Origin: a bacterium
GTDB lineage: Bacteria; 4484-113; JAGGVC01
Direction of reading: 5' to 3'
NCBI GenBank assembly: GCA_021158185.1
Contig: JAGGVC010000126.1
Span: 10,689-74,688, forward strand
DNA length: 64,000 nt
Made by a program: the position numbers and the translations under genes. Below are positions 3,461-18,978 of this stretch, piece by piece; positions within the stretch are counted from its first letter, which is position 1; each line of letters opens with the position of its first letter. The notes under the pieces were generated by a model, which did not search any database, was not told the origin of the DNA, and saw nothing but the letters and a program-made list of their open reading frames with translations.

Positions 3461-5587
3461 CTATTCGCCGTTCGATTTGGTCTTGACGATATTGATGGGA
3501 AGCATGTACATATCGTATATCACGTAGTCCATCGGGATTGTAACTTTGATTTCCTTTTCTTCGTCGGGATGTAGATCGTCTGTGGGAATGCCTTGAGATT
3601 CGGCCTGCTGTTCTTCCGGCGTGGGCGGACGCGGTATTACGACCATGAGCTGGTTGTTTTTCTCGCCTTTCTTTATTTTCTCAAGAGTTTCGTCTACCTT
3701 GAGTATTTCAGGGCCGAGCGGGAGAGGGCCCGCGGAAATAGGGAAGAGCACGGTGCCTTTACCGCCGTATTCGTTGTAAATGCTTACGAGACCGCCGCCG
3801 CCCTGCACGATGAGCGATGTCTGACCTTCAGGGAAATCGCGCGGTATTCTGATCATTAACTCCTGCTCAATCGTTTCACCGCGGTAAGGCTGCAGCGTCA
3901 CTTTGACGTTGACGATCTCTCCCGGCATGAATTCCTTGACTTCAAGGTCCGGAGGAGGTGCCTCTTCTTCCGCTGCCGTGATATCTGGAGCCATTTCAGC
4001 TTCTGCTTGCATGTTTGCCGCTTCGCTCTCGGTATCAATGTTTTCGCTGCCATTCTGTGCTTGTTCGGTTGTTTCGGGCTCAACGTTACCTTCAACTTCT
4101 GATTCCTGTTGTTCCTCTGCGTCGGGATCGATGATTTCAGCTTTGTCCACGCTTGCATTGATACGGTTATTGGTTACCTCAAAGTCAATGCTGAATGTAT
4201 TGATTCGGATGTCGCGATAGTTGTTGAAAAGAATGAACGCAGCTGTGGGGAGGGCTTCTGCGGCCACGAATGAGGCCGCGTTGAAATTGTCATAGAAGTA
4301 GTTCTCGCGCTCGAAAGTCTCTTCAAGTTCGTCCGATTCAATTCTATAGGTGATTTTTATCGTTCCGCCGCCATCACGATCAAGCATCTGGTAGTAGGAC
4401 ATCATCGTAACCATATAAAGCAGCGTTTCGAAAAGGTCTTCGTCACGAATAATCTTGTACACGTAGGTTTTTTTTTGGTTCAGGTCAATATCCTTGATGT
4501 TTATCCTGACATCGATCATGTCAGGCTGAAGGCCGACGATTCCTCCGACTGCTGCCGCGTGATCGTAAGTTAACGTTCCGACCTGGTTCAGCATATAGCC
4601 GTCCTTGAAGCCGCGCATGATGTCGCTGTATGTGTACGAGATATAGGCCTTGCCGAACGGCATGTTGATAATGCCGTCCTGAAACATACCGTGTCCGAAT
4701 GCAAGAATGCGATTCTGGTCGTCGATATATGTGAGAGTTCCTATCCCTGCAAGATCGAAGTCTCCTGTTACAAAGGCGATTGCGAGCGCATCACCGGGCT
4801 GAAGTGTGTTGATGTCGCCCTGTTCTTTGAGAAGGCCGTAGCCTTTCGGTCCCGCGCCGGACGGACCTTGCGCAAGCGTAAAGCCGGAAAGCTTGGAGTT
4901 GCCCTTGAGGATTGGCTCAACCATATCGAAAGTACGTGCGCTAACACCGCCCACGAGAAGCCTTCCCTTCAGTGGAACAGCATAAACGGGAGCGACTGGC
5001 GCTGTTCTAACGGCATTCATTTTAGCGGCATAATCCCAGTCATTCGTGTGGATGACCGAAGGAGCTTCCGTCTCGTTGTTTTCCTCATCCGAGTCGGAAG
5101 GGATGACTGGCCCGCCGGGGCCTGTTGAAAACTGAGTGAATGCGGGAGGCAGTACTGTATTTTCGCTGTAATCACGTTCCTCACCCTGATCGAGAGCTTT
5201 GAGCATCGAGATGATCGGTGTGGCCCCGCAGATATGAGTGTCGGTGCCCGGTATCGCGGAGCTTATTGCCCCTGCAAGCTTGCCCTCGAAGTAAATGGGG
5301 CTGCCCGAATAACCTGCGGCGATTCCATTGGAGAAATCAACGGCTGCACCGGTTACTTTGAGGAGGATCATCGCACCGGCGTCGAACCCGCCCTCCGGAA
5401 TGACATCGATAACTTCGATGTCGAATTCGTCGATTCGGGTTCCTTCGATTACGGTTTTTCCTGTGCCTGCAAGCCCCGGATAGATATCTTCAACGGCGAA
5501 AAAATCGCTTGCGTACGCATTTGATTGGATCAGCACAAAGGCCAAAAGAAGCACAGACAATGAAAACATGATTCTGAGTTTGTTCAT
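3461..5587 (-). CDS. Secreted peptidase S55 (SpoIVB-like) family protein with an acidic low-complexity linker and a C-terminal domain
   Basis: Signal peptide MNKLRIMFSLSVLLLAFVLIQSNAYA. GYSGSPIY matches the S55 catalytic Ser motif (GxSGSP). TLTYIDDQNRILAFGHGM matches the SpoIVB His motif (TYID...ALGHGI). A Glu/Asp-rich linker lies at about aa 470-540. Confidence 0.5.
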   Translation of the reverse strand: MNKLRIMFSLSVLLLAFVLIQSNAYASDFFAVEDIYPGLAGTGKTVIEGTRIDEFDIEVIDVIPEGGFDAGAMILLKVTGAAVDFSNGIAAGYSGSPIYFEGKLAGAISSAIPGTDTHICGATPIISMLKALDQGEERDYSENTVLPPAFTQFSTGPGGPVIPSDSDEENNETEAPSVIHTNDWDYAAKMNAVRTAPVAPVYAVPLKGRLLVGGVSARTFDMVEPILKGNSKLSGFTLAQGPSGAGPKGYGLLKEQGDINTLQPGDALAIAFVTGDFDLAGIGTLTYIDDQNRILAFGHGMFQDGIINMPFGKAYISYTYSDIMRGFKDGYMLNQVGTLTYDHAAAVGGIVGLQPDMIDVRINIKDIDLNQKKTYVYKIIRDEDLFETLLYMVTMMSYYQMLDRDGGGTIKITYRIESDELEETFERENYFYDNFNAASFVAAEALPTAAFILFNNYRDIRINTFSIDFEVTNNRINASVDKAEIIDPDAEEQQESEVEGNVEPETTEQAQNGSENIDTESEAANMQAEAEMAPDITAAEEEAPPPDLEVKEFMPGEIVNVKVTLQPYRGETIEQELMIRIPRDFPEGQTSLIVQGGGGLVSIYNEYGGKGTVLFPISAGPLPLGPEILKVDETLEKIKKGEKNNQLMVVIPRPPTPEEQQAESQGIPTDDLHPDEEKEIKVTIPMDYVIYDMYMLPINIVKTKSNGE

Positions 5588-6420
5588 AATCAGCTCCTGA
5601 TTGGAAAAACAGAACAGAGTTTGTGTTGTCAGCTGCTAACTGTCAACAGGGAATTTATACCCTAAATACCTTGTTCTTTGTAGCTTTTGACTTGCAGGGA
5701 ATGCATTTTGCGTAAATCAATAATTTCACATATCGGGTTCACAAGCATCTTCATGCGAGCAGAAATGCGCTTTTCAGCGTGTACGCAAGTGCTCGGTGGT
5801 TACCCGCTTGTCGTTTGTTTTTGCTGGGCCAAGGGCACACGAGGAGTAATGAGGTAGAGCGGGGGATGGATCAGGATTGCCATCCCAGGCGGAGCAAAGC
5901 ACAGTCGCCAATCCCAACACAATACATTTCGCCTGCACGTTACTCCGCCGGGGATGTTGCAACCCAGGTTGAAGAGAGTCTGAACATTTTTCAAAATGCT
6001 GCCAGTCTACTGATCTACTGAGAAATCTCAGCGAAGACCGGATGCATTTTCTTCTGCAGTGTCGCGTTATCCCGGGGGATGTTCGGGAGAATGAAACTGC
6101 ATGCCGAATTTTAATGTTCACCTGAAGGCAGCGCTTTCCGGGGAAAAACGTTGCCCTGTATCATTTAACCTGAGATAGAGCACTTTGGCTATAGGCTATG
6201 ACAGTGTTTCACAACAGAGACCATTTTTGACATGTCGGATGTCAGTGCGGTTTCGTAGCATTTGCCCATTCACGTTTGGTGATCAAAATCTTGTTTCCTC
6301 TGCTTCGCGCAGATTTACATTTCTTCTTTGTGCTTTCATAAGGTAGAATATATGCAGCAATTTTCCGGGTGTTGAAAGGTGCAGGTTGCCAGTTTATTCT
6401 GGTTATTGTGGGTGAGTGAA

Positions 6421-7983
6421 ATGGAATCATCATTAAGGATTGCTCGTTTTTGTTTTGTCTGCATTGCCGCGATTATGCTGGCGATTACTCTTCTGTCGTG
6501 CAAGGACGGCGGCGGAAGACTAGTCATTACCCAGCCCAGTGACTTGGTCAAGACCAATGCTACAGCAGTTTCACTCGGCGACGACAAGCCGATCGTTCTC
6601 GATTATGACCACGGGAGCGGAGCGACGCCGCAGGGATTTGTGCCCGTCGATTCGTTCGAGCTGGACAATTCCATCGCTGGCGAGTTCACAGCGGCAGTCG
6701 AAGTTACACTCGTTCTGACTGAAGGCGTTGCCCCTGGAACTTCGATTTACATCTACGAGATCATTAGAGCAACCGGCGCACTTATTCCTGTGGCAAGCTC
6801 GGTAGTCGGGGAGGATGGACGAACAATCGTCATTACTCTCAATCGGCAGGGAAGATACCTGGTGCTTATCCTAGCTGACCAGATGGATCCCGCGGCGCAG
6901 TTCGAGGTGTGGGCTTTCGCCGACTTCGCACTAGGGGAAGCGCCGCTGGAAATCAATTTCTTTGCTTTTGAAAGCGGTGGAATCGAGCCTATAACGTATC
7001 TTTGGGATTTCGGCGATGGCGGCGAAGGTGAAGGTTCGGTCGTTTCTCATTCGTACCTTGCGATGGGCGAGTACAACGTTGTGCTTACCGCGACGGACGA
7101 TTCCGGTCGAACAGCGGTCTTTGATTCCACATCCATCGAAATTACAGGTGAGCCTGCACCGCTCGATGTCGTACTTCAGAGTCCGCAGCCTACCGGGAAC
7201 GAAAGAGAGATGCAACTCATCGCAACGGTTTCCGGGGGCTTTGCACCGTTTACATACGAGTGGGATTTCGGCGACGGAACTGCGAGTGAAGAGCCGAACC
7301 CGATTCATACATATGCCGAGTCCGGTATTTTCGCAGTTAGCGTTACAGTGACAGATGCCTTTGGCTTCACATTCACGCCGGATTCACAGACAGCGGACGT
7401 AAGAAGCGCTTCGCTTGATGGTGCACCGCTTGCAGGTCAGCGTGAACTCGATGTTACGTTCGATGTATATGCCGCTGCTGACGATGACAACCCGACTGTC
7501 GTGTCGCTCGACTTTGGTGATGACAGCGGTCTATTTGTACTGAGCACGCTCACTGAAGAGGATCTCACCATTGACGAGCAGGTTCTACACACTTACCTTT
7601 TGCAGGGAACATATACGGCGACGTTGTTGATTTCTACGATGTGGCAGAGCGAAGCGCTGGAGATTCAAGATACCGTGCAGATTGTAGTCGGGCCTGGTAC
7701 TCCCGAGATTCTAGATGTTGCTCCTAATCCTGCCAGTTCGGGAGACCTGATTACCGTTACCGGCAGATTCTTCGAGGACGGCACGAACGGTACGCTCAGA
7801 TGGAGCGGCACGGACATCCCTACGGAAACCTGGTCCGATACCGAGATAACGTTTCTTGTTCCAGCGTCGTCCGTGGATGGTGTTGTAACTGTGGTAAATG
7901 AAGGGCTAGAGAGCATCGGCGCGGATTTGAAAGTGATACCGGATATTCCTGAGTGGGGCGAGGGTGGTCTAGGCCAGTTCTAG
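6421..7983 (+). CDS. Surface lipoprotein with two PKD domains and a C-terminal IPT/TIG domain
   Basis: Signal plus lipobox (…LAITLLSC). Two WDFGDG-type PKD repeats (YLWDFGDGGEG…, YEWDFGDGTAS…). The C-terminal IPT-like segment reads PEILDVAPNPASSGDLITVTGRFF. The ATG at 6421 is preferred over the GTG at 6379. Confidence 0.65.
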   Translation: MESSLRIARFCFVCIAAIMLAITLLSCKDGGGRLVITQPSDLVKTNATAVSLGDDKPIVLDYDHGSGATPQGFVPVDSFELDNSIAGEFTAAVEVTLVLTEGVAPGTSIYIYEIIRATGALIPVASSVVGEDGRTIVITLNRQGRYLVLILADQMDPAAQFEVWAFADFALGEAPLEINFFAFESGGIEPITYLWDFGDGGEGEGSVVSHSYLAMGEYNVVLTATDDSGRTAVFDSTSIEITGEPAPLDVVLQSPQPTGNEREMQLIATVSGGFAPFTYEWDFGDGTASEEPNPIHTYAESGIFAVSVTVTDAFGFTFTPDSQTADVRSASLDGAPLAGQRELDVTFDVYAAADDDNPTVVSLDFGDDSGLFVLSTLTEEDLTIDEQVLHTYLLQGTYTATLLISTMWQSEALEIQDTVQIVVGPGTPEILDVAPNPASSGDLITVTGRFFEDGTNGTLRWSGTDIPTETWSDTEITFLVPASSVDGVVTVVNEGLESIGADLKVIPDIPEWGEGGLGQF

Positions 7984-8082
7984 TATCAGCCAGCCCGGTT
8001 TTTTTGTGTTGCGCCGATTTACGAGGCGAATGTTGATTTGCTTCGATGAGGCGTTAGAGTTGATTAGTATTATTCCTGATCT

Positions 8083-11000
8083 ATGGCGGTGATTGAAGTG
8101 AGGAAATTTGTACTTGCTTCGTTTCTGTTGATTCTGATTGTGCTTGTTTCGCTTGCTTGCGGAAAGGGCACAGGAATGAGGTCCGTTCCGTTCACAAGCG
8201 GATTCACGAACGTTGGCGATGATGCTGCAGACGTCGAGGAATCCCCGAATCTCACGCTGAATGTAATGCGCGATACGAGTGGGCTGCCAACGGGCGTACG
8301 CATCACGTGGCTGTACTCGACTCAGGCGGGGGTGGCTGGTTACAACATCTATCGATCAACCAGTTCCTTTACTGATACAGGGCAGGCGGTGCTGGCAAAC
8401 GCCATCCCAGTTACCGGGGCTCCCGGTGTCCTCGCGGACTTCGAGGATATTTTTCCCGTAACGATCGGTGATGAGTTCTTCTACCGGATTACTGCCGTGG
8501 ATTCCGAAGGTGACGAAAGCCCGTTGTCCGATGAGCTTTCGATTGTGATTTCCCACCATTACATAACCGCCTTGAACGTCTATTCAGGCGGTGCTGATGA
8601 TGTAATCACAATTCTCGGTGGTAACTTCGGTGATTACGATGAACAGAGCGACCGAGTTATGTTCTATGGTGTGACCTTGTATCTGCCGTCATCCCTTGAT
8701 CGTTCGCCTTCGGCTGTAGCTTCACAGGGCTTTGTCAGTGCAACGGTAGTTTCCTGGCAGAATGAGCAGATAGAAGTTGTTGTGCCTCAGTTTACGACAT
8801 CCGGCACGGTTCGGGTTCAAATCAACGGAGTGAATGCCAACCTGGACGGCACGTTTACATCGACGGATCCGTATATGCTCTCAGCCGCACCCGACCCAGC
8901 GATCGAGGGGAAATTGCTTACGATTACTGGAAACAATTTTGGAGACGTTAGGTTGTCGAGCATGGTAAGACTTGGAGCTGTAACATTGAACAAGGATTCC
9001 GATTTCGAAGAATGGTCGAATACCGAAATCAAGTTGATTATGCCTATGAAGATTTTGGGCATCATCAAACTTGACGTCGTAGTTCCCGTAAAACCAGTAT
9101 CAAATTCGTTTATGATGAACATTGCTCCGCTGCCCGATCCGGTCATTTACACGGTAACTCCACTATCCGCGTTCAACGGCAACATTGTTACGATTGGCGG
9201 TGCTAATTTCGCGGAATATGTGGCTACAGAGGATTTTGTATCACTGCGGGGCATTCCAGCTTCCAAGGTGGGTGCGATGCTCAGGAAACCGTCTGCAACG
9301 GCGGTAGAGCAGTATATCGGAGCACGTATCATTAGCTGGACGGATACAATGATCTCCATATTTGTACCCGATTATACAACGATCGGACCGGTGAGAGTTG
9401 ATAGAGGAAGTAAGAGCGTTGTCTTTGATGGCCCGTTTGACTCGCTAAGCCCTGCGATTTTCAGCGCAACACCGGATCCGATCCCTGCAGGTCAGATTCT
9501 TACGCTGACTGGTCGTAACTTTGGCGACATCAGGGGCACGAGCTACGTTAGAGTTGGAAACGTGATGCTCGGCAGCGATGCGCAGTACGACTTCTGGGGG
9601 GATACGGAGATACGGTGCTTTGTTCCAGGCGGTATTGGCGGGATTCAGGACGTGATCGCATCCATTGACGGAAAGGGGCAGTCAAACGCACTTTCAATTT
9701 CCATTACTTCTGCGCTTTTGCCCGTGATAGAAGATGTATCTCCTCAGAAAGCCACAGGCGCTCAACTGGTAACCATCACAGGTCAGCATTTCGGTGATGT
9801 TGCAGGGACAGTGAATATTAACGGAGCTGTGATAAAGACTGGCGCTCCGAATCTTGTGGGGTGGAGCGATACGCTGATAGACATAACTGTGCCTGACACC
9901 GCCGACTTAACAGGCCGAATCAAGGTCAATACAACTGATGGAAGGAACAGCAATGAATGGTACTACAGACGAGGAGTACCGCAGGACGCCGCTTTCAAGA
10001 ATGAGAGCATCCTGTTTGCAGGGCAGATGACGGGAATCGGTTCCGATGCTGTAAATGACGGCGCGTATTCGCACTTCTTCTCCATTTCGGCGAATGCCCG
10101 CGAAATCGTGCATGTCAAAGTAGACGATAACACGGGCGGTGTTCAGGAAGGCATCGTAACGGCTTCATATCCCAACCTGACAGCAAGACTTGCAACGGTA
10201 TTCGATGGGACAAATATTTGGCTCGCGTTCGTTTCAAACAACAAGGTTTACATAACGAGCAGTGCCGATCAGGGATCTACGTGGGATATGCCTGCAACCG
10301 AGGTGTTCGCTGGACCTGCAGATATCGGATCGCTCAGTATTTGCAGCGATTTCGCAGGCAATGCATCCCTCGCGTGGGGTGATATAGCGACCGGCGATGT
10401 GTATTTCAGTCACTTCAGTGCTGCAGCGGGAGGCTGGGTCAATGAGATCGTCGGTATCGGATATACCGTCGGAGATGTTGATGTTGCAATTCAGGATCCC
10501 GTTGCAGGAAAATTGACTCTGGTTACTTACTATACTCTTGCAACGGACGAGATTCAGGTTCTAAGCAACACTACAGGCCTGTGGACACCATACATCGGCC
10601 CGGTCGTCGGCGGCGGACTCTATCACAACGTGTTATTCAAAGACAATGATGCCGAGCCGAGCGTTCTGTTCCTGGATGCTGGCGGCAATATTTCGCTGGC
10701 TTCCGAATGGCCCACTGACCCGGGTGTATGGTCTCTTCTCACGATTCCTACGTCGGCTGGTCTCGGTAACGGACTTGATTCTCTTGATGCAGGAAGCCCG
10801 ATTATGTATATCGCAACCGGAAGTTTCGGTGGTAACATAGATCCGTATTTGATCGAATATAACTATGTTGCCGATTCGAGGATTGAGTACCATATGATTG
10901 ATATCAACAATAAATATGCAGCGTATCCGGCGGTGCTCGTTGATTCTCTGGGCGATGTGAAAAGCATGCATACCGACGTAACGTTGTGGGATCATTGGAT

Positions 11001-12111
11001 TGTCAATTGGGATACATCGGGCGCAGGCAATCATGTACCGGTGAGCTACGGCGATGATTTCGGCGAGATAGTTGCGATGAGCGGTGATGATCATCTGGCA
11101 ATGGATCTTGCAGGTGGAACCGGTTTTCTCTTCAAGGATGCCACTGCAAATAAGCTGTATTTTGGCTACTACAAGGACGGCAAGAAATACTCCCAGCTGA
11201 TTGACGGAGGTGCGGCGACGGACTACCTTGTTGCGGGATTGGACTGCGTTGGGACGAGCTACCATGTCTTTTATCAGAAGGGGACCGATCTGACGCACTG
11301 CATCGTCGATGTTTCAAATCCTGACTCGCTTGATGTGGGAACGAAAACTGCTATTGCCAGCTTTGGTGATACCGTACACGAGGATATTGCAGTTCTTTCG
11401 GGAAGTCCTGGTGATACTGTGATGAATGTTTTGTACGTTGAGACAACAACTGCAACTGGTGCTAATGAGAGGCTGATGCTTGGCAGTATGAGCGAGAGTG
11501 CCTGGGTATTCGAGGAACTTGCTAATCTTGGATCCCTTGCAATAAGCGGTATCGATCTTGCGATGAATCCGAATCTCGAAAACCGTGTCCCTGTCTACTT
11601 TGATTCAAGCTTGAACCAGCTGATGGTCGGCCAGTTCGACGGTACTTCGTGGACGTTTGCGCCAGCGGGGATCACTGCCAATTCAGGCAAATACCCCGTG
11701 CTTGAGTATAAGTATGGAGTTGGGTGTGAGGCTGTTGCATTCGATGAAACCGCCGGAATAGTCGAGCAGTTGATTCAGTTCGATCCTGTTTGGACTCAGG
11801 ACACCATTTCAGATCTCATGGGCACAGATTCGCCATACGATATGTGGGGAGGAGCCTTGAGTTTTGCTGGCGGGGATGCCTGGGGGCTCGTTACAGCGTA
11901 CTACTGTTCACAGAAGGGTGAATTCCAATATGTCATCCGCGAGGAGGAGGGACTGTACACGTACAAGGACGCTTTCTACACAAATCCGATTGGGGATATC
12001 GATTACACTGCGTGCGCAGTGGATGGAAATGCTGGTTCTACAATGATCTACCAAGGAGCGAATGACTTCGGTCTTTATCTCTGCCGTCAGGACCTGCTCG
12101 CCGTATCGTAA
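8083..12111 (+). CDS. Giant (1342 aa) cell-surface protein carrying an FN3 domain, five tandem IPT/TIG domains and a BNR/Asp-box beta-propeller-like region
   Basis: N-terminal signal peptide. FN3-like segment (GYNIYRSTS…YRITAVDSEGDESPLS). Five IPT repeats (ITILGGNFGD, LTITGNNFGDVR, VTIGGANF, LTLTGRNFGDIRG, VTITGQHFGDVAG). Asp-box SSADQGSTWD. Confidence 0.7.
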   Translation: MAVIEVRKFVLASFLLILIVLVSLACGKGTGMRSVPFTSGFTNVGDDAADVEESPNLTLNVMRDTSGLPTGVRITWLYSTQAGVAGYNIYRSTSSFTDTGQAVLANAIPVTGAPGVLADFEDIFPVTIGDEFFYRITAVDSEGDESPLSDELSIVISHHYITALNVYSGGADDVITILGGNFGDYDEQSDRVMFYGVTLYLPSSLDRSPSAVASQGFVSATVVSWQNEQIEVVVPQFTTSGTVRVQINGVNANLDGTFTSTDPYMLSAAPDPAIEGKLLTITGNNFGDVRLSSMVRLGAVTLNKDSDFEEWSNTEIKLIMPMKILGIIKLDVVVPVKPVSNSFMMNIAPLPDPVIYTVTPLSAFNGNIVTIGGANFAEYVATEDFVSLRGIPASKVGAMLRKPSATAVEQYIGARIISWTDTMISIFVPDYTTIGPVRVDRGSKSVVFDGPFDSLSPAIFSATPDPIPAGQILTLTGRNFGDIRGTSYVRVGNVMLGSDAQYDFWGDTEIRCFVPGGIGGIQDVIASIDGKGQSNALSISITSALLPVIEDVSPQKATGAQLVTITGQHFGDVAGTVNINGAVIKTGAPNLVGWSDTLIDITVPDTADLTGRIKVNTTDGRNSNEWYYRRGVPQDAAFKNESILFAGQMTGIGSDAVNDGAYSHFFSISANAREIVHVKVDDNTGGVQEGIVTASYPNLTARLATVFDGTNIWLAFVSNNKVYITSSADQGSTWDMPATEVFAGPADIGSLSICSDFAGNASLAWGDIATGDVYFSHFSAAAGGWVNEIVGIGYTVGDVDVAIQDPVAGKLTLVTYYTLATDEIQVLSNTTGLWTPYIGPVVGGGLYHNVLFKDNDAEPSVLFLDAGGNISLASEWPTDPGVWSLLTIPTSAGLGNGLDSLDAGSPIMYIATGSFGGNIDPYLIEYNYVADSRIEYHMIDINNKYAAYPAVLVDSLGDVKSMHTDVTLWDHWIVNWDTSGAGNHVPVSYGDDFGEIVAMSGDDHLAMDLAGGTGFLFKDATANKLYFGYYKDGKKYSQLIDGGAATDYLVAGLDCVGTSYHVFYQKGTDLTHCIVDVSNPDSLDVGTKTAIASFGDTVHEDIAVLSGSPGDTVMNVLYVETTTATGANERLMLGSMSESAWVFEELANLGSLAISGIDLAMNPNLENRVPVYFDSSLNQLMVGQFDGTSWTFAPAGITANSGKYPVLEYKYGVGCEAVAFDETAGIVEQLIQFDPVWTQDTISDLMGTDSPYDMWGGALSFAGGDAWGLVTAYYCSQKGEFQYVIREEEGLYTYKDAFYTNPIGDIDYTACAVDGNAGSTMIYQGANDFGLYLCRQDLLAVS
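8575..10035 (+). repeat. Five diverged ~100-aa tandem IPT/TIG domain repeats inside the giant surface-protein gene
   Basis: Recurrent xTIxGxNFGD…W(S/G)DTxI motif at about 100-aa spacing in the translated ORF. Confidence 0.5.
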
Positions 12112-12218
12112 GTTGTAGCGACCTCGAATAACGGTATCAGGTTTGAGATGAGCCGGGGTACATGTCCAACACTCAGTTGCCCGATCTCGTCGTTCCGGGA
12201 AGTGAAATCCCCGCTCGC

Positions 12219-14924
12219 TTATTCCGTGACCGTGAAATGCAAAAGGTTTGATACAAAACCGTCCCTCAATATACACACAGGTCCGCTTTCGGCGTTGCTG
12301 AATGGCGGGATTATTGCTGCTTCCGGCTGTGGATAAGGCGGGGGATCGCCTGTATTTTGATCTGTTTCCGCGTCGGGTGGAATTGCTGGCGGAAGCTCGA
12401 CAGGAAGCGAAAGGGGATTATAGGGAACGAGAACCCGTATAAGAGTATCTGTCCAGTCTATCGGAACAGCTTCGACATCTCCGAATGTAATCGTGTTTCC
12501 ACTTGCGCTTGCGCCGAAGGATTCGCCGTGAATTTCCACTGTTGCACCAATGGGCGCGTTATTGGGTGTGATGTTCAGGATCATTGGTGCATAGATGTCC
12601 TCTGAAGAAAAATTTCTCCGTGTCAGAATCTGCGCCAGCGAGACGCCATTATCGATGCCATCACTGTCAAGTATGCTGTCATTCCCGTCTGTAAACCGAA
12701 TGATAATGTAGCGCGCTTGCACAAGCGGAAAACTCAGCATGGCAGCCTGATTATGAATGAGTACAAGCTCTCCATCAGTCATAGCGGATTCATCGATTAT
12801 CGGGATATACGATTCCGCAAGAATAGGCAGAGCGGGATCGTAAACACCAGAAGCAAAAATCCTCAGTGTTTGGCTGTACGGCGGATCGGAAATGCTCATG
12901 GTTCTTCCGGAGAGCATCATCCAGTTAAGCGTTTCGGACTGCGGAAGCTCGATTACAATCTCGCAGGGCGAAGAATCAATCAATTCCGCATACCAGAATG
13001 ATGTTGGAGATTCATCGATCGCTCTTGCTGGTGAATGGCTGGAATCGAATTCGGAGTCAGCTCGGGCGGTTGCGCCGAACGATGAAACTGTCGGACTGTA
13101 CAGGTGTGAATCTGCAGTGAATGAAGTCGATTGGGAGTCCGGTGATTGTGTTGCTCCGTCTGATGCGAGAAGAGTGTTTACGGATAATTCGTACCAGCCC
13201 CCCGGAAAAAGAGGATCCGATTCGAGTCGCACCCTTTTTCCATCGTCCATCAGTACAGCGCGATATATGTATTTTTGAGGTAAAATTGAATAGTGAGAAA
13301 CATCGGTTGCATAGTAAGGATCCAGTGCCCGGTTAAAGAAAATATCCAGATGGGATATTCCATCCGTGCGCACTCCAAGAAGCTCAAGGTCGATTTGCGA
13401 AGGAGACCAGAACGCTTGATATGCATTCACAAGACCCGCACCAAGTTTTCCCGCAAGTTCCGGATATTTGTCGTCAAAGCTCTTAGCGCCGATCATGAGA
13501 GCAGTTCGCACATCATCGAGCGTGTATCCCGGTTTCTCTGAAAGGATGAGCGATGCAAGTCCGCTGATCAGCGGAGCTGAAAGGCTTGTACCGTCTACAG
13601 ACGCGTAAGTTCTTGTTTCGCCATCGGAGTTGACTGTCAATATGCTGGTTGCGGGGGCAAGGATATCGAGGAATTCACCATAATTCGTTCCTTCCGTTGC
13701 CTCGTTCCAGATATCGCTTATTCCCTTTGTTCCGCCCACCGCGATTGCTTCTGGATAGTACGCTGGTGCGCAAAGCTGAGGCGATTCCTCGCCGGCATTT
13801 CCTGCCGCAGCAATAACTATCTTTCCATAATCAGCGCAAACGCTCGTTGCTTCGGCGAGGAGCTTCTGGGATTTCGGATAGACAGCGCTTATGTTGATTA
13901 TTCTTACTTCGGGGTATTTTAGAGTGTGCATCATAGCGCGGATGCAATCGATAACGAGCCAGCCCTTGGATTCGCCAACAAGGGAATCCACTCGGAGCGA
14001 CATAATTCGTACGTTCCAGTCGACGCCTGCGATTCCCTGAGTGTTATTTCCAGCAGCACAAAGGACGCCTGCCACCCTGCTTCCATGTTGGGCACCGTCA
14101 TCAGCATCACCGTTTCCGTCCTCGTCGATTCCGTTTCCTGGCGTTGCGCCGCCATCGCCACGTAAGGATGGGTCATCATCATGTGGCGGGCTAATGAAAT
14201 CCCCGCCTTCAGGGTGAATACGTCCTGCGAATTCAGGATGGTCATAATCAACGCCGGTGTCGATAATTGCGACTGTTAAATCGGAGGAACCAGTTGTCGA
14301 ACCCCAGACATAGTCGATGTATGTTCCGATGATGTAATACTGATCGTTGAAGTACGGGTCATTCGGTGTGACGGGGTCGGATGCGGCTGAACCGTAATAG
14401 TGAGGTTCTGCCAGCCTGACTGAAGGATGCAACTGAATTTTCTCGATATACTCGTCGAGTTCAGGAACATCCGATGAATCTAGTCCGCTTACAAGCCGGT
14501 ATTCTCCGGCTTTCTTGAAGGACGGAATCCTGGAATCAGGGATGGCAAAACGCAATTCAGCAGCAAGAAGCTCAGGTATCCACTCGATCAACTGTGCTCC
14601 TACATCGGATGCTACGGTTCTTGCATCATCCAGCGTGGAGCCTTGCACAAGAATTGCAATCACTTCGTCCGCAACAAACCCGCCCGGCGCGAGCTGTGTT
14701 TTCTTGGGAAGAGCTTCATCAGAAGTATTCGTCACAGAATCAGATATTGGCGATAAGTCGGCATTTTGGTCTTCCGGCTGAGATGCCGGTGAATCCAGTT
14801 GTGAAGAAGAATTTGCTTCAGGGGGAGTAACGCTATGGGGAATATCACGCGATGTGCATCCAAGCAGAAAAACGGCGGTTATCGCCAGAAGTATCTGAGC
14901 GAAAAGGCGACTATTCGATGCCAC
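12219..14924 (-). CDS. Subtilisin-like serine peptidase (S8) lipoprotein with C-terminal discoidin (F5/8 type C)-like and IPT/TIG domains
   Basis: Lipoprotein signal (…AVFLLGC). S8 triad motifs are AIIDTGVDYDHPEF (Asp), HGSRVAGVL (His) and GTSLSAPLISG (Ser). The discoidin-like segment is SPARAIDESPTSFWYAE and the IPT segment is ILNITPNNAPIGATVEIHGESFG. The start codon is GTG. Confidence 0.8.
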   Translation of the reverse strand: MASNSRLFAQILLAITAVFLLGCTSRDIPHSVTPPEANSSSQLDSPASQPEDQNADLSPISDSVTNTSDEALPKKTQLAPGGFVADEVIAILVQGSTLDDARTVASDVGAQLIEWIPELLAAELRFAIPDSRIPSFKKAGEYRLVSGLDSSDVPELDEYIEKIQLHPSVRLAEPHYYGSAASDPVTPNDPYFNDQYYIIGTYIDYVWGSTTGSSDLTVAIIDTGVDYDHPEFAGRIHPEGGDFISPPHDDDPSLRGDGGATPGNGIDEDGNGDADDGAQHGSRVAGVLCAAGNNTQGIAGVDWNVRIMSLRVDSLVGESKGWLVIDCIRAMMHTLKYPEVRIINISAVYPKSQKLLAEATSVCADYGKIVIAAAGNAGEESPQLCAPAYYPEAIAVGGTKGISDIWNEATEGTNYGEFLDILAPATSILTVNSDGETRTYASVDGTSLSAPLISGLASLILSEKPGYTLDDVRTALMIGAKSFDDKYPELAGKLGAGLVNAYQAFWSPSQIDLELLGVRTDGISHLDIFFNRALDPYYATDVSHYSILPQKYIYRAVLMDDGKRVRLESDPLFPGGWYELSVNTLLASDGATQSPDSQSTSFTADSHLYSPTVSSFGATARADSEFDSSHSPARAIDESPTSFWYAELIDSSPCEIVIELPQSETLNWMMLSGRTMSISDPPYSQTLRIFASGVYDPALPILAESYIPIIDESAMTDGELVLIHNQAAMLSFPLVQARYIIIRFTDGNDSILDSDGIDNGVSLAQILTRRNFSSEDIYAPMILNITPNNAPIGATVEIHGESFGASASGNTITFGDVEAVPIDWTDTLIRVLVPYNPLSLPVELPPAIPPDAETDQNTGDPPPYPQPEAAIIPPFSNAESGPVCILRDGFVSNLLHFTVTE

Positions 14925-15005: not shown

Positions 15006-15992
15006 CTACAGCGCGCCCTCGATGCATGCATAATCGCCGAGGACGAGATTGCGCGGTGGCTGGTTTATGACGGCGCCGATGCCGATCAAGGATCCGCTCA
15101 GGAAACAGCCGTGCATTGAAGCACCGGGATTAACGATCGTATCAGCGAGGATACATCTTTCGACAGCTGCACCGTTTGAAATCGTGACATTGGGTCCGAT
15201 AATCGAATCCTTCACAACGGCGTCGGGAGAAATATACACCGGAGGAATAAACACGCAGTCTTCGCCTTTCGGCTCGGTGTGCATGCTTTCGATCATGTGC
15301 TGGTTGGTTGCGATGAGTTCGTCGGGCTTGCCGCAGTCGAACCAGCCTTCTACGTTGAATATCCGAAAATCGGTGTCTGATTCGACCATCCTTTGGAACG
15401 CGTCGGTCAACTGAATCTCACCGCGCGTCCGGATGTCGTTTTCCACGAGATAGCTTAAAGCTTCAAACAGCTTCTCTGGAGTTTTTATGTAGTTCAAGCC
15501 GATAAGAGCTAGGTCGCCTATGAATTCAGCAGGTTTTTCGACCATTTTGATGATTCTATCGCCTTCCGTTTCGACAATTCCGAATCTTTCAGGATCGTTC
15601 ACCCGTTTTACGCCGAGCGCGCCGTCACTTTCGCATTTGAAAATCTCAGCCAAGTTTCCATCTACAATCGTGTCGCCAAATATGATCAAGAGTTCTTCCG
15701 ATGGCTGAATCGAGTCTCCGCACAGCCATATTGCATGACCGAGTCCGAGTCGCTCGCGCTGGTATATGTACTCGGTATTCAAATTCGGGTAATTGGCGCC
15801 TACGTATTCCTTAATCAGCTCGCCAAGGTATCCGATGACGATGATAACGTCCTCTATTCCGAGCGCAATCATCCTGTCGAGAATATGACCGATTATGGGG
15901 CGGTCGCCCACTTGAACGAGTGCCTTTGGTGTCGTGTTCGTGATCGGCCTGAGACGGCTTCCGACACCTGCCGCGGGAATGATGGCCTTCAT
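15006..15992 (-). CDS. Sugar-phosphate nucleotidyltransferase with a C-terminal left-handed beta-helix (hexapeptide) domain
   Basis: N-terminal AIIPAAGVGSRLRP nucleotidyltransferase signature and a C-terminal hexapeptide-repeat region. It lies 81 nt upstream of the S8 peptidase gene on the same strand. Confidence 0.7.
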   Translation of the reverse strand: MKAIIPAAGVGSRLRPITNTTPKALVQVGDRPIIGHILDRMIALGIEDVIIVIGYLGELIKEYVGANYPNLNTEYIYQRERLGLGHAIWLCGDSIQPSEELLIIFGDTIVDGNLAEIFKCESDGALGVKRVNDPERFGIVETEGDRIIKMVEKPAEFIGDLALIGLNYIKTPEKLFEALSYLVENDIRTRGEIQLTDAFQRMVESDTDFRIFNVEGWFDCGKPDELIATNQHMIESMHTEPKGEDCVFIPPVYISPDAVVKDSIIGPNVTISNGAAVERCILADTIVNPGASMHGCFLSGSLIGIGAVINQPPRNLVLGDYACIEGAL

Positions 15993-16188
15993 AACTTTTT
16001 CCTCCAGAAATCACATGGCTGAATCGCCAGCTCGACGTAAATCGTCTCACATATTACCAGAAAAGGGCGCAAGTCGTAAAGCGCTAGAAGATAAGCGTGA
16101 TTGCCGAGTGCATGTGAAATTTTGCCGTTAATGATTCATGAGCATGCGAGCGCAAATCACATACAGAATTCAAGCAATGGAATTCTAT

Positions 16189-16217
16189 TTGCAAAACCAG
16201 GCGATTAATACTAGAAT
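16189..16217 (+). promoter_or_regulatory. Putative sigma-70-type promoter (TTGCAA-17-TAGAAT) for the dockerin/cytochrome lipoprotein gene
   Basis: TTGCAA at 16189-16194, a 17-nt spacer, then TAGAAT at 16212-16217. A GGAGA ribosome-binding site sits 7 nt before the TTG at 16273. Confidence 0.35.
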
Positions 16218-16272
16218 ATATGCTCAGGAAGTTGACGCTGTTTTTCGTTGCTGGAGATTTGGAGACACGCCG

Positions 16273-18978
16273 TTGTTTAATCTGAGAGCTTGGGCTTTGC
16301 CATTGGCATTGGTGCTTGCACTGGCATTATCCGCGTGCGAAAGCACGGGCGGCACTTCATCGAGTAATCCCATCGCAGGTTTCTCCGCAAGCGATACGGA
16401 TGAAATAGTCTACGATGTTGTGCTTGGAATTCCCCCTGCGGAATCCAGTGAATTCGGAGACAAAGCTGTTCTTTCCCTTGTTCCGACGGAAGATGAAGGC
16501 GGATTTATTCTTACCGCAGACGGGACTGATGTACGTGTCTGCTATGCAACGATCAATTACAACGCGGATTCGATCCGTTTTATCGGTGCATTCGGCGGTG
16601 AGGTGAATCCGGCTATTTTTGCAGCGATCGAAGTTCGTCCGGGCACGGTTCATATCGGCTGGGCAATACCCGACTTTGATGAAAAGAGCGGACCTTCGGG
16701 CAAAACAACCCTTATGAACCTGAAATTTGGCATCGGGGGCGTTCTCGAAATACGCGATATCTCGAAGGTTCCTGACAGTGAAGGGCACGCTGTCGATGAC
16801 CTTGAGAGCGAATGGACGGAAGATGGTCTCAGCATCACGTTCTACGAAAGAAACCCGGGTGACTACGATAGAGGCGGCGAGGTCGGCGTGCCGGATATCA
16901 CGCCTATTGCACAGAATTATCTTGCCGAAGTCAATTCTGAGGATGAAAATGATACGCTTGTCGTAATCGACGGAGATGGCAGCGGCGAGATCGGAATTCC
17001 AGACATCACGCTTATTGCTGAAAATTATCTTTCGGACATAGAAGGCTATGCACTTCAGTTCTCCGTTGACGGCGGAGTCAACTGGATTCCGGATGAACCT
17101 GCGATAACCGGCCTGGAGGGTGTCCCGCTTTACGTCAGGGATGATTCGGCCTTTGTAACGATCGATCAATGCTATCAATTCCCGCGCTGGACAATCCTGA
17201 TTCCCATTGAAGAGGTTTTCGAATACCAGATTCCAGGGCTCGATCCGGGCAACGACAATATGCTTGTACGCGTGTATCCGACTGATGGCGAGGGCGTCGG
17301 CCCCGGCAGCAACGAAGCTGAAATTTCCATCATTAGCGAGGGCGATACGGAACCACCGCAATGGGTCGATACCGAAGGGCTAACACTCCTCGATCCGGTT
17401 TCGAATTTCAACACGCTCCAACTGGAATTCGGTGAAGCAGTTGACGACAGCGGCGAGGACGTGGTGTACAGGATCTATTATGCAAAGTCAGCCGAGTTCG
17501 ATTCGCATTACGCCGAGCTCGAAGAAAATCCCGATGCGATTGGTTTTACCGAAATCTGGCCCCGCTACGACGAAATGCCGCCTTATTCCCATGAGCTTGT
17601 CGGGCTTGAGCCCGGCCAGGAATACAAGGTGCTTGTTCGCGCAAGAGACGATGCGTTTCCCGATATGAATATCGATTCGAACACGAATATTGGAACGGTC
17701 GTTGTTGATGAGCATTCGTTGCTTCTCAGCGAGATTCTATGGGCCAAGTCTGGCGATTCAGGCGAGCCCGCAAACGGCGATGTGATTGAACTGAGCGTTG
17801 AGATTACCGGCGGCACAGGCGAGATTAGTACAGTCTGGAGCGACGAAAGGCCGGACGCCGGGTATTTTGTAGGCGACGGTATTCTTGAAGGCAACGTTGC
17901 AACGAATATGTGGGGTACTGCTCTTGGAAGTGAGTGGTATACGATAAGGATAAGCGCAACTGACGCCGAAGAACGGAACGGGATGCAGGAGACCTCCTTT
18001 TATGTGGGCTGGCAGCCGATCCCGAGCTTCAACGACGACATTTATTCGATAATCGAAGCTTCTTGCATTTCTTGCCATGGCATTGGCGGCGCTTCGGGCC
18101 TTGATATGAGCAATACTTCCACAGCTTTTGAAAACCTTGTGAATGAATCTTCGGCTCAAGTGCCTGAAATATACAGGATAGAGCCATTTGAGCCGGGGCA
18201 GAGCTACCTCATATGCAAGCTCCTGGATGGTTGTCCGATCAACACGGGGGTACGGATGCCGAAGGACGCCGATCCGTTGCCCGAAAGCGAGTTCCTTGAC
18301 ATCTTGAGATGGGTATATACCGGAGCAAATGAAGGTGCTCCCGACCCGACGAAGATCTATTTTGCCGCACCAATTCTTAGGCTGGTGAGCGGAGAAGATC
18401 CTGTGAGTGAGATTCCTGCAGGATTCCTTGGAGAAATTTCGATACCATTCATATCCGAGTTCACAGCTCCTCTTACTGCCGAAGTGTCCGACGACAGCGA
18501 TCACTGCGATGCGTTCATTGATCCGGGTGATTTCTATGATGAAGAGGTACTCTGGATAATGGTCGGCGGTGACAGTGCCGGAACATACAGCGTTGTTCTC
18601 GATGTCGAGGATGCCGAAGGAAAAACGGGGCATCTTGAGATTCCGGTTGCGATTACAGGCTCGGGAGCCAGGCTGTTATCTTATGAAGCACATATCGAGC
18701 CGTTAATTATCCCACGTTGTGCTGCGTGCCACGGTGCAGTCCCACCGGTAATGACCGAGGGGGAAGGATACGGCAACCTTGTAGGCCAGCCATCGTCGCA
18801 GGACGGGATCGACTATGTAACTCCCGTGAACATGACTAAGAGCTATATTGTTTTCAAGACGATGGGATGGTCGCCTGCCGGGCCTGAGCCCCATCATGTC
18901 GATCCCGACGACGATGAAGATATTGGACAGTTCCTCGTACCGATTGCCGAGTGGATTATCGGGGGAGCGCTGCCTTAA
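16273..18978 (+). CDS. Large lipoprotein with a cohesin-like N-domain, two dockerin-type Ca-binding repeats, an FN3-like domain and two PSCyt1-type (CxxCH) cytochrome c domains
   Basis: A TTG start at 16273 puts the signal peptide at the N-terminus (MFNLRAWALPLALVLALALSAC, lipobox LSAC). The ORF-track start at 16138 lies upstream of the predicted promoter. Dockerin repeats are DYDRGGEVGVPDITPIAQNYL and DGDGSGEIGIPDITLIAENYL. The heme motifs are CISCH and CAACH, and the second domain ends …WIIGGA, which is PSCyt1-like. Confidence 0.55.
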   Translation: MFNLRAWALPLALVLALALSACESTGGTSSSNPIAGFSASDTDEIVYDVVLGIPPAESSEFGDKAVLSLVPTEDEGGFILTADGTDVRVCYATINYNADSIRFIGAFGGEVNPAIFAAIEVRPGTVHIGWAIPDFDEKSGPSGKTTLMNLKFGIGGVLEIRDISKVPDSEGHAVDDLESEWTEDGLSITFYERNPGDYDRGGEVGVPDITPIAQNYLAEVNSEDENDTLVVIDGDGSGEIGIPDITLIAENYLSDIEGYALQFSVDGGVNWIPDEPAITGLEGVPLYVRDDSAFVTIDQCYQFPRWTILIPIEEVFEYQIPGLDPGNDNMLVRVYPTDGEGVGPGSNEAEISIISEGDTEPPQWVDTEGLTLLDPVSNFNTLQLEFGEAVDDSGEDVVYRIYYAKSAEFDSHYAELEENPDAIGFTEIWPRYDEMPPYSHELVGLEPGQEYKVLVRARDDAFPDMNIDSNTNIGTVVVDEHSLLLSEILWAKSGDSGEPANGDVIELSVEITGGTGEISTVWSDERPDAGYFVGDGILEGNVATNMWGTALGSEWYTIRISATDAEERNGMQETSFYVGWQPIPSFNDDIYSIIEASCISCHGIGGASGLDMSNTSTAFENLVNESSAQVPEIYRIEPFEPGQSYLICKLLDGCPINTGVRMPKDADPLPESEFLDILRWVYTGANEGAPDPTKIYFAAPILRLVSGEDPVSEIPAGFLGEISIPFISEFTAPLTAEVSDDSDHCDAFIDPGDFYDEEVLWIMVGGDSAGTYSVVLDVEDAEGKTGHLEIPVAITGSGARLLSYEAHIEPLIIPRCAACHGAVPPVMTEGEGYGNLVGQPSSQDGIDYVTPVNMTKSYIVFKTMGWSPAGPEPHHVDPDDDEDIGQFLVPIAEWIIGGALP

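What the first reader, a model, noticed from the sequence alone, without database searches (positions are those of the whole stretch)
6379..14924. Contiguous trio of IPT/TIG-bearing surface (lipo)proteins, including a 1342-aa FN3-IPTx5-BNR protein and an S8 protease with discoidin+IPT
Three adjacent genes each end in or contain IPT/TIG domains combined with different heads: PKDx2, FN3 plus an Asp-box propeller, and a subtilisin plus a discoidin domain. Two are clear lipoproteins. A sugar nucleotidyltransferase sits directly upstream on the same strand as the protease.

The shared domain on adjacent surface proteins suggests a functionally linked cell-surface binding and proteolysis module, possibly for polymer or prey adhesion, rather than unrelated genes.
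Basis: partly seen in the sequence, partly recalled or inferred. Interest (0 to 1): 0.6.

Follow-up and report, generated by a model that had tools for sequence, protein, structure and literature searches.

The report
Conserved surface lipoprotein and protease cluster
Three neighbouring genes of an uncultured bacterium encode lipid-anchored proteins built from Ig-like TIG domains, one of them an active subtilisin-type protease, and the set stays together in distant relatives, so it is probably one cell-envelope module, but it is made of ordinary parts and its substrate is unknown.

Summary
The three ORFs are real, and Pfam finds TIG in all three and in no other ORF of the 64-kb window.

- **A (6421-7983, +):** lipoprotein with PKDx3 and one TIG.
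- **B (8083-12111, +):** lipoprotein with a weak FN3-like domain, TIGx5 and a 714-aa all-beta C-terminal region. That region has no Pfam family and one conserved Asp-box. A low-confidence model of it matches beta-propellers. It is very rare: 3 full-length relatives among 1.84 billion representatives.
- **C (12219-14924, -):** lipoprotein with a prodomain, an S8 domain with an intact triad, an Ig-like domain, a discoidin domain (profile-level support only) and TIG.
- **Upstream of C:** a sugar-1-P nucleotidyltransferase, probably co-transcribed.

The block A>B><C<NTP recurs in a sister lineage (L004). It also recurs in a distant lineage (L009) whose flanks are unrelated, which argues for functional linkage. 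Three other lineages keep NTP+S8 but lack A+B, so the protease does not need them.

In C the lipid anchor lies upstream of the prodomain. Activation should therefore cut the protease off its anchor, as published for dentilisin PrtP, and partner lipoproteins would have to hold it. That mechanism is inferred, not shown.

Verdict: a lineage-specific member of a known kind of surface protease/adhesin cluster, of modest interest.

The parts
6421..7983 (+). Gene A, a 520-aa lipoprotein (the ORF also opens at GTG 6379). Layout: signal with lipobox LLSC (Cys27); conserved N-domain of unknown fold (res ~40-180); PKD x3 (res ~181-426, the third degenerate); TIG (427-506); conserved C-terminal tail P(D/E)WxxGG..Q(F/L).
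   Evidence: Pfam PKD_4 E 6.6e-38, PKD E 2e-29 (3 stretches each), TIG E 3.7e-7. Orthologs are 51% (L004), 42% (L009) and 48% (L013) identical. The N-domain has no informative PDB match.
8083..12111 (+). Gene B, a 1342-aa lipoprotein (Cys26). Layout: FN3-like domain (res 55-157, nt 8245-8553); TIG x5 (res 160-628, nt 8560-9966), in which TIG3-4 are a tandem duplicate of TIG1-2; 714-aa all-beta C-terminal region.
   Evidence: Pfam TIG E 8.2e-25 with 5 stretches. The local HMM finds 5 domains. The duplication is shown. FN3-like support is weak.
9967..12108 (+). C-terminal 714-aa region of B. It has no Pfam family and is probably beta-propeller(s). One conserved Asp-box, SADQGSTW, sits at res 727-734 (nt 10261-10284).
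12219..14924 (-). Gene C, a 901-aa lipoprotein subtilase. Layout: signal with lipobox LLGC (Cys23, nt 14856-14924); low-complexity linker; fervidolysin-type prodomain (res ~75-185, nt 14370-14702); S8 catalytic domain (res 186-505, nt 13410-14369); Ig-like domain (506-605, nt 13110-13409); discoidin/F5-8C-like domain (606-778, nt 12591-13109); TIG with a ~40-aa Pro-rich loop (779-901, nt 12222-12590).
   Evidence: Peptidase_S8 E 3.5e-36 and TIG E 1.3e-8. The triad and oxyanion Asn are invariant. The prodomain PF22148 scores 20.3 bits here (cut-off 21), and 29.0 and 26.1 bits in orthologs. For discoidin. Mature thermitase residues 2-276 align to residues 186-504.
15006..15992 (-). Sugar-1-phosphate nucleotidylyltransferase with a C-terminal left-handed beta-helix. 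It lies 81 bp upstream of C on the same strand and is adjacent to the S8 gene in all six lineages.
   Evidence: NTP_transferase E 9.3e-32. It resembles rmlA_long and Arch_glmU but scores below their cut-offs. It is 64-76% identical across lineages and always directly upstream of S8.
16138..18978 (+). Possible associate of the cluster: a 933-946-aa lipoprotein with two conserved CxxCH motifs, dockerin-like paired repeats and a weak FN3. It is divergent from the NTP gene.
   Evidence: It is next to the NTP gene in the window, L004, L005 and L006, and a paralog lies convergent to the giant in L013. Pfam gives only weak hits.
5588..6420 (.). An 833-bp gene-free gap upstream of A. In L004 and L009 this position holds a 705/702-aa secreted G(D/N)DxY-repeat protein, which is absent from the window.
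   Evidence: tblastn of the 705/702-aa proteins against the window gives no hit. There is no Rfam family or tRNA here. Public gene calls place no gene here.

Best explanation
This is a lineage-restricted, conserved cell-envelope gene cluster. Its constant core is a sugar-1-P nucleotidyltransferase plus a lipoprotein S8 protease. Its accessory part is a pair of Ig-stalk lipoproteins, A (PKD/TIG) and B (FN3-like, TIGx5, propeller-like head). In two other lineages the accessory part also includes a 705-aa repeat protein.

Shown:
- The domain architectures of the three proteins.
- Conserved lipoboxes in all three.
- An intact catalytic triad in the protease.
- Conservation of the 4-gene block in a genome with unrelated flanks.

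Inferred mechanism:
1. All three proteins are exported and N-terminally acylated.
2. In the protease the acylated Cys lies upstream of the prodomain. Autocatalytic removal of the prodomain, predicted near residue 185, therefore separates the mature enzyme (catalytic, Ig-like, discoidin and TIG domains) from its lipid anchor.
3. The mature enzyme is then held at the envelope by non-covalent contacts with partner lipoproteins. A and B are the candidates, possibly through the shared TIG domains and the invariant Pro-rich loop of the protease's TIG. This is the published logic of the Treponema dentilisin complex.
4. The discoidin domain and B's distal propeller would capture a substrate, possibly a glycoprotein or glycan, for proteolysis.
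5. Where A and B are absent, the protease would be released or held by other partners.
For: - TIG is present in all three proteins and in no other ORF of the window.
- Lipoboxes are conserved in orthologs of A, B and C.
- The catalytic residues are invariant.
- Prodomain hits lie between the lipobox and the catalytic domain. Mature thermitase aligns from residue 186.
- The block A>B><S8<NTP is conserved in L004 and in L009. L009's other genes have no orthologs in the window.
- A and B occur together in 4 of 4 lineages that have B.
- By parsimony on identities, (window, L004), then (L005, L006, L095), with L009 outside, the full cluster is ancestral.
- Published precedent: dentilisin PrtP is a preproprotein, its acylated N-fragment is released on activation, and PrcA/PrcB lipoproteins stabilise the mature protease at the surface (PMC8167434).
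- The discoidin profile matches PDB F5/8C proteins.
- The model of B's C-terminal region matches propeller lectins, sialidases and WD40 proteins.
Against: - Three lineages keep NTP+S8, with its TIG and discoidin intact, but have no A or B. Any A/B-protease interaction is therefore not essential to the protease.
- A/B and S8 are transcribed convergently, not as one operon.
- In L013 the gene convergent to B belongs to the 912-aa family, not to S8.
- The TIG domains of A, B and C are only 25-41% identical to each other, so they give no sign of co-evolving interfaces.
- The prodomain hit in the window protein itself is just under threshold (20.3 against 21 bits).
- No physical interaction, localisation or substrate evidence exists.
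- The envelope type of the organism is unknown.
Confidence: 0.4

Rival explanations
1. The genes have no functional link. They are independent envelope proteins that are neighbours through inherited gene order. TIG is simply a common building block of this clade's exported proteins.
For: - S8+NTP persist without A/B in L005, L006/L015 and L095.
- The transcription units are convergent.
- Inter-protein TIG identity is only 25-41%.
- Other multi-domain lipoproteins lie nearby, namely the 946-aa family and, in L005, its paralogs.
Against: - The 4-gene block keeps its order and orientation in L009, where every flanking gene differs.
- A and B are never seen apart (4 of 4).
- No other TIG ORF exists in 64 kb.
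Confidence: 0.25
2. This is a glycan or glycoprotein foraging locus, PUL-like in logic. B's propeller is a lectin or glycosidase head on an Ig stalk. The protease's discoidin domain binds carbohydrate. The nucleotidyltransferase reflects sugar metabolism.
For: - The discoidin profile hits F5/8 type C proteins.
- B has a conserved Asp-box.
- A TIG+BNR_2 lipoprotein (P0128) is a weak relative of the Asp-box blade.
Against: - No glycoside-hydrolase family, SusC/D or sugar transporter is found in or next to the cluster in any lineage.
- There is a single Asp-box and no BNR Pfam hit.
- The model confidence is too low to tell lectin from WD40.
- A nucleotidyltransferase is anabolic, not catabolic.
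Confidence: 0.2
3. A, B and the 705-aa protein are structural surface-layer or sheath components. The NDP-sugar from the nucleotidyltransferase glycosylates them, and the S8 protease matures them. The A/B cassette is lost in lineages with a different surface.
For: - The nucleotidyltransferase is tightly linked to S8 in all six lineages.
- The presence/absence pattern of A/B is typical of surface variation.
Against: - No glycosyltransferase lies inside the block; the nearest GT4 is about 6 kb away and is not orthologous between the window and L009.
- There is no S-layer homology domain.
- Lipid-anchored monomers with long stalks do not look like lattice formers.
Confidence: 0.1

Closest known systems
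Treponema denticola dentilisin complex (PrcB-PrcA-PrtP)
   Same: It is an acylated subtilisin-family protease encoded next to accessory lipoproteins. The lipid anchor sits on the prepropeptide that is removed on activation. The mature protease is kept at the surface by the accessory lipoproteins (PMC8167434). The window's S8 has the same order: lipobox, then prodomain, then catalytic domain.
   Different: Only the S8 catalytic domain is homologous: NF033595 denti_PrtP scores 65.5 bits against a cut-off of 300. A and B are built of PKD, TIG and propeller domains. [quoted passage not shown]
Thermitase / Ak.1 protease / fervidolysin-type S8A subtilases
   Same: The catalytic domain is most similar to Ak.1 protease and thermitase (E 2.9e-27 and 2.1e-25). 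The N-terminal prodomain is of the fervidolysin type, PF22148. Beta-sandwich domains follow the catalytic domain.
   Different: This protein adds an N-terminal lipobox, a discoidin-like domain and a C-terminal TIG carrying a conserved Pro-rich loop. Only five full-length orthologs (about 50% identical) appeared in the 5.8-billion-protein search, and a sixth, L009's, lies at about 40% identity.
Ig-stalk surface lipoproteins (Bacteroidota SusE/F and SGBP type; Leptospira Lig/LIC10067-type). This comparison rests on general knowledge.
   Same: An N-terminal lipid anchor is followed by tandem Ig-like domains that project a C-terminal binding head. There is a weak NCBIfam similarity to LIC10067_lipo in the orthologs of A (L004) and B (L009), not in the window's own proteins.
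   Different: There is no SusC/D partner and no PUL context. The head domain of B belongs to no described family.
TIG + BNR_2 propeller lipoproteins (for example P0128)
   Same: The architecture is lipobox, TIG, then an Asp-box beta-propeller. The Asp-box blade of B aligns to P0128 (E 4.1e-4 against the whole library). P0128 hits BNR_2, BNR and TIG in Pfam.
   Different: P0128 has many Asp-boxes and clear BNR Pfam hits. B has one Asp-box, no BNR hit, and a head about twice as long (714 aa).

Membership tests
IPT/TIG domain (PF01833) | Pfam score above the gathering cut-off (20.9 bits) in each of the three proteins | tested here: met
   A scores 30.5 bits, B 80.1 bits (87.1 bits with 5 stretches on the sub-sequence) and C 35.1 bits.
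PKD domain (PF18911 / PF00801) | Pfam score above the cut-off in A | tested here: met
   PKD_4 scores 129.1 bits and PKD 101.8 bits, with 3 stretches each.
Peptidase S8 (subtilase) | Pfam PF00082 hit plus the Asp-His-Ser triad and the oxyanion Asn | tested here: met
   125.4 bits. D222, H280, S447 and N376 are invariant in 6 orthologs.
F5/8 type C (discoidin, PF00754) | Pfam score above the gathering cut-off (28.2 bits) | tested here: inconclusive
   The window protein scores 15.1 bits and orthologs score 24.7 and 26.1 bits, all below the cut-off. A 6-ortholog profile does match PDB F5/8 type C proteins 7jnb and 7jfs at E 1.6e-7 and 1.3e-6.
Fibronectin type III (PF00041) in B | Pfam hit, or a significant profile match to FN3 structures | tested here: inconclusive
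   There is no Pfam hit even at E<=10. The profile against PDB gives the FN3-like region of 5z06 at E 0.0036 and the chitinase A1 FN3 domain 1k85 at E 0.097.
BNR / Asp-box sialidase-like propeller (PF02012, PF13088) | Repeated Asp-box motifs and a Pfam BNR hit | tested here: not met
   There is no BNR hit on the whole protein or on pieces. Only one SxDxGxxW motif exists, although it is conserved in all 4 orthologs. A propeller-like fold is suggested only by a model of pLDDT 50.6.
Bacterial lipoprotein | Signal peptide ending in a lipobox with an invariant Cys | tested here: met
   A has LLSC (Cys27), B has SLAC (Cys26; orthologs FVGC, LTSC, LFAC) and C has LLGC (Cys23; orthologs VMAC, ILSC, LCSC). 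Acylation itself is not testable here.
Dentilisin PrtP (NCBIfam NF033595, equivalog) | Score above the equivalog cut-off (300 bits) | tested here: not met
   65.5 bits, covering only part of the catalytic domain. It may work like dentilisin but is not a member.
Dentilisin-like assembly | The acyl anchor is on a cleaved propeptide, and the mature protease is held by partner lipoproteins | not testable with these tools
   The domain order lipobox, prodomain, catalytic domain is shown. Cleavage and partner binding are inferred from PMC8167434.
Polysaccharide utilisation locus | SusC/SusD pair or a glycoside hydrolase in the cluster | tested here: not met
   Pfam on the cluster and its neighbours, in the window and in L004, L005, L006 and L009, shows none.

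The most novel reading that the evidence does not exclude
The cluster encodes a previously undescribed envelope protease complex of an uncultured, unclassified bacterial lineage. The subtilase is shed from its own lipid anchor on activation and is docked on two dedicated Ig-stalk lipoproteins. One of these carries a new family of double beta-propeller head that selects the substrate. This would be a non-spirochaetal analogue of dentilisin that arose independently.
Probability: 0.2. Interest if true: 0.5.

Novelty: new member of a known kind. Interest (0 to 1): 0.3.

Why it matters
If the model holds, it would be a second, independent case of the dentilisin principle, in which a protease is anchored through partners rather than through its own lipid. 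It would also attach a function to a 714-aa domain family that currently has no annotation and only a handful of members. As it stands, the locus is a well-defined, testable gene cluster in an uncultured bacterium. It is made of common extracellular modules, has no known substrate, and bears on no long-standing question.

Tried and rejected
- **Single-sequence AF2 of B's C-terminal region:** pLDDT 33, useless.
- **Structure job with the 4-sequence alignment:** The 3-sequence run reached only pLDDT 50.6.
- **afdb50 fold library:** unavailable.
- **Word-indexed protein searches with B and with its profile:** they returned almost nothing and missed the 43%-identical L004 protein.
- **Metagenome scan with B's profile:** found nothing.
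- **Metagenome scan with the S8 alignment:** one true ortholog, identical to the L006 lineage, plus 79 generic S8 hits.
- **hhalign self-comparison of B's head for internal repeats:** only E 0.07-0.6, not significant.
- **PDB sequence and profile searches:** uninformative for B's head, the TIG region, A's N-domain and the 705-aa protein.
- **Promoter and terminator scans:** at or below the level of shuffled sequence. The B/S8 convergent gap has no stable hairpin (z 0.17).
- **Rfam and tRNA scans of the window:** empty.
- **Literature searches for the domain combination and for the sample accessions:** nothing relevant.
- **A mobile-island origin of A+B:** not supported. GC is flat at 0.50-0.51 across 4-16 kb and no integrase or transposase is nearby.
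- **NCBIfam 'choice-of-anchor Z repeat' hit on A's TIG:** it hovers around the cut-off (31.5, 34.0, 27.0 and 21.8 bits against 30) and adds nothing beyond 'TIG-like'.
Full report
**1. Observation**

The three ORFs exist as described: A at 6379/6421-7983 (+), B at 8083-12111 (+, 1342 aa) and C at 12219-14924 (-, 901 aa). A 328-aa gene at 15006-15992 (-) lies 81 bp upstream of C.

Domains that Pfam confirms:
- TIG is above its cut-off in all three proteins, with five TIG stretches in B.
- A has PKD, in three stretches.
- C has Peptidase_S8.
- The upstream gene has NTP_transferase plus a hexapeptide-repeat tail.

A TIG HMM built from the seven domains finds no further TIG among the 426 six-frame ORFs of the 64-kb window at E<=1. 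Three adjacent TIG genes are therefore not background.

The rest of the window is ordinary chromosome (MutS, RNase PH, Dfp, CheA/CheB, OTCase, Liv transporter), and GC is flat. All three proteins begin with a signal peptide ending in a lipobox, and the Cys is conserved in every ortholog.

- **fn3 in B.** Pfam finds nothing. A 4-ortholog profile of residues 55-157 gives weak matches to FN3-like domains in PDB (5z06 at E 0.0036, the chitinase A1 FN3 domain 1k85 at E 0.097).
- **BNR in B.** Pfam finds nothing on the whole protein or on pieces. One Asp-box (SADQGSTW, residue 727) is conserved at the same position in all four orthologs.
- **Discoidin in C.** It is sub-threshold in the window protein (15.1 against 28.2 bits) and in orthologs (24.7 and 26.1 bits). 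A profile of six orthologs does hit the PDB 'F5/8 type C domain protein' entries 7jnb and 7jfs at E 1.6e-7 and 1.3e-6. I accept this domain as likely.

**2. Anatomy**

**Protein A.** The order is lipobox (Cys27), a conserved roughly 140-aa N-domain with no recognisable relative, three PKD repeats, one TIG (two in L009), and a short tail P(D/E)WxxGG..Q(F/L). That tail ends the protein in all four lineages.

**Protein B.** The order is lipobox, FN3-like domain, five TIGs and a 714-aa head. TIG1/TIG3 and TIG2/TIG4 are each other's best matches, so a two-TIG unit was duplicated. The L009 and L013 orthologs have three TIGs.

The head has no Pfam, NCBIfam or PDB sequence relative. HMMER against 1.84 billion representatives finds only three full-length relatives: itself, P0123 at 33% identity and P0124 at 28%. 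A scan of 185,579 species genomes finds one relative.

AF2 without an alignment failed (pLDDT 33). With three sequences it gave an all-strand model of pLDDT 50.6, with two better regions at residues ~30-170 and ~380-560.
- Foldseek returns tandem-propeller proteins at low TM-scores.

'Propeller-like, probably more than one' is as far as this goes. Internal repeats are not statistically detectable.

**Protein C.** The order is lipobox (Cys23), low-complexity linker, prodomain, S8 domain, Ig-like domain, discoidin-like domain and a C-terminal TIG.
- The fervidolysin-type prodomain (PF22148) scores 20.3 bits here against a cut-off of 21. It scores 29.0 and 26.1 bits in orthologs.
- The thermitase-like S8 domain has D222, H280, S447 and N376 invariant.
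- The last strands of the C-terminal TIG are separated by a roughly 40-aa Pro-rich loop that begins with the invariant LVPYNPLSLP.

**3. Related loci**

The exact genes occur on several public contigs of the same organism. NCBI names them 'IPT/TIG domain-containing protein', 'S8 family serine peptidase' and 'NTP transferase domain-containing protein [bacterium]'.

Five full-length S8 orthologs at about 50% identity appeared in the protein search. Their contigs, plus those of B's relatives, give six further lineages.

| Lineage | Gene order at the locus | Notes |
|---|---|---|
| L004 (GCA_964602075.1, labelled uncultured Planctomycetia) | NTP, S8, B, A, a 705-aa protein, S55 peptidase | B is 43% and A 51% identical to the window's |
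| L009 | CsgG/TPR lipoprotein, 702-aa protein, A > B > < S8 < NTP | S8 40%, A 41%, B 32%, NTP 64% identical. No other L009 gene has an ortholog in the window |
| L013 (4.7-kb contig) | A > B > < a 912-aa-family gene | Contig too short to see further |
| L005, L006 (= L015), L095 | NTP > S8 > S55 | No A or B and no remnant of either |

Three conclusions follow:
- A and B are always together.
- The four-gene block survives where everything around it has been rearranged.
- The protease and its upstream nucleotidyltransferase survive without A and B.

From the identities, the window and L004 are sisters, the L005 group is next and L009 is outside. The simplest history is an ancestral cluster of 705-aa gene, A, B, S8 and NTP. 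The L005 group then lost the 705-aa gene, A and B, and the window lost the 705-aa gene. In the window an 833-bp empty gap lies where the 705-aa gene would be.

**4. Mechanism**

Shown:
- Three lipoproteins built around a shared Ig-like module.
- A catalytically intact subtilase.
- Conserved linkage of the genes.

Inferred steps:
1. In C the acylated Cys23 lies upstream of the prodomain, and mature thermitase aligns from residue 186. Normal subtilase autoprocessing would therefore leave the lipid on a roughly 160-residue N-fragment. It would free the mature enzyme, made of the catalytic, Ig-like, discoidin and TIG domains.
2. This is what is published for Treponema denticola dentilisin. PrtP is made as a preproprotein, the acylated N-fragment is released on activation, and the lipoproteins PrcA and PrcB stabilise the mature protease at the surface (PMC8167434).
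3. By analogy, A and B are candidate docking partners. B's six-domain stalk would place a propeller head, and possibly the protease, well away from the membrane. The discoidin domain and the propeller are the likely ligand-binding parts.

The nucleotidyltransferase is cytoplasmic. Its constant position 40-81 bp upstream of the S8 gene suggests co-transcription, but its role is open. It might supply sugar for glycosylating these proteins, or its position may reflect nothing more than a shared promoter.

I put about 0.6 on 'functionally linked in some way' and 0.4 on this specific model.

The main counter-evidence:
- A and B are dispensable for the protease in three lineages.
- Transcription of the two units is convergent.
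- The TIG domains of the three proteins are only 25-41% identical to each other.

**5. Comparison with known systems**

It works most like dentilisin but is not a member. The PrtP equivalog model scores 65.5 against a cut-off of 300 bits, and the accessory proteins are unrelated to PrcA and PrcB. The catalytic domain is an ordinary thermitase/Ak.1-type S8A domain.

A and B resemble the general class of Ig-stalk surface lipoproteins. The nearest architecture to B is TIG plus a BNR_2 propeller in a lipoprotein such as P0128, although B fails the BNR test. It is not a PUL, because there is no SusC/D, glycoside hydrolase or transporter in the cluster.

**6. Verdict**

The interpretation that the genes form a linked module is partly supported by synteny. 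'Polymer or prey adhesion' is untested.

Novelty is limited to three things: a lineage-specific cluster, a very rare unannotated head domain, and a plausible independent instance of partner-anchored protease assembly. Interest is 0.3.

Noticed in passing
window 16138-18978 (+); orthologs L004:6214-8715, L005:6034-8772, L006:5679-8417; fragment L013:4299-4682: A 833-946-aa lipoprotein family with two CxxCH motifs conserved in every full-length ortholog. It has dockerin-like paired repeats (GEVGVPDITPIAQNYL / GEIGIPDITLIAENYL) and a weak FN3, and passes no Pfam or NCBIfam family threshold. It sits next to the nucleotidyltransferase gene in four lineages and convergent to the giant gene in L013. 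It may belong to the same module.
   Followed up: partly
L004:18536-20653 (-) and L009:5922-8030 (+); absent from the window (gap 5588-6420): A 705/702-aa secreted protein with about twelve G(D/N)DxY repeats, 50% identical between the two distant lineages, which is more conserved than A, B or S8. It has no Pfam family and no significant NCBIfam or PDB match. It lies directly upstream of the PKD/TIG gene and was lost in the window.
   Followed up: partly
window 12222-12590 (-), residues 838-880 of the S8 protein: The C-terminal TIG of the protease is interrupted by a roughly 40-aa proline-rich loop. It begins with LVPYNPLSLP, which is invariant across orthologs that are only 40-50% identical overall. 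It could be an interaction or modification site.
   Followed up: no
window 7939-7980 (+), last 14 residues of A: A conserved extreme C-terminal tail, P(D/E)WxxGG..Q(F/L)-COOH, is present in all four lineages. I do not recognise it as a known sorting signal.
   Followed up: no
window 3461-5587 (-): A 708-aa exported protein with a SpoIVB-type S55 peptidase domain (E 9.3e-11). It is the conserved left-hand neighbour of the cluster in the window, L004, L005, L006 and L095, but not in L009.
   Followed up: partly
L005:12760-12800 and L006:12425-12465: A conserved hairpin, GCGGCAAGCTTCCCCGGAGTGAGCCGC, lies in the S8-S55 intergenic region of the lineages that lack A and B. Closer to the S55 start there is a conserved TTGACA-type promoter-like stretch.
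   Followed up: no
L009:3106-5655 (+): An 849-aa lipoprotein that fuses a CsgG-like N-terminal domain to a long TPR array. It lies upstream of the 702-aa gene in the distant lineage.
   Followed up: no
window 28377-30164 (+) and 23249-24079 (+): Two sizeable ORFs (595 and 276 aa) with no Pfam hit at the thresholds used.
   Followed up: no
tool behaviour: The word-indexed protein search returned only the query's own cluster and one weak hit for B. It missed the 43%-identical L004 protein and, in the first search, the 33%-identical P0123. 'Few homologs' from that tool alone would have been misleading.
   Followed up: yes
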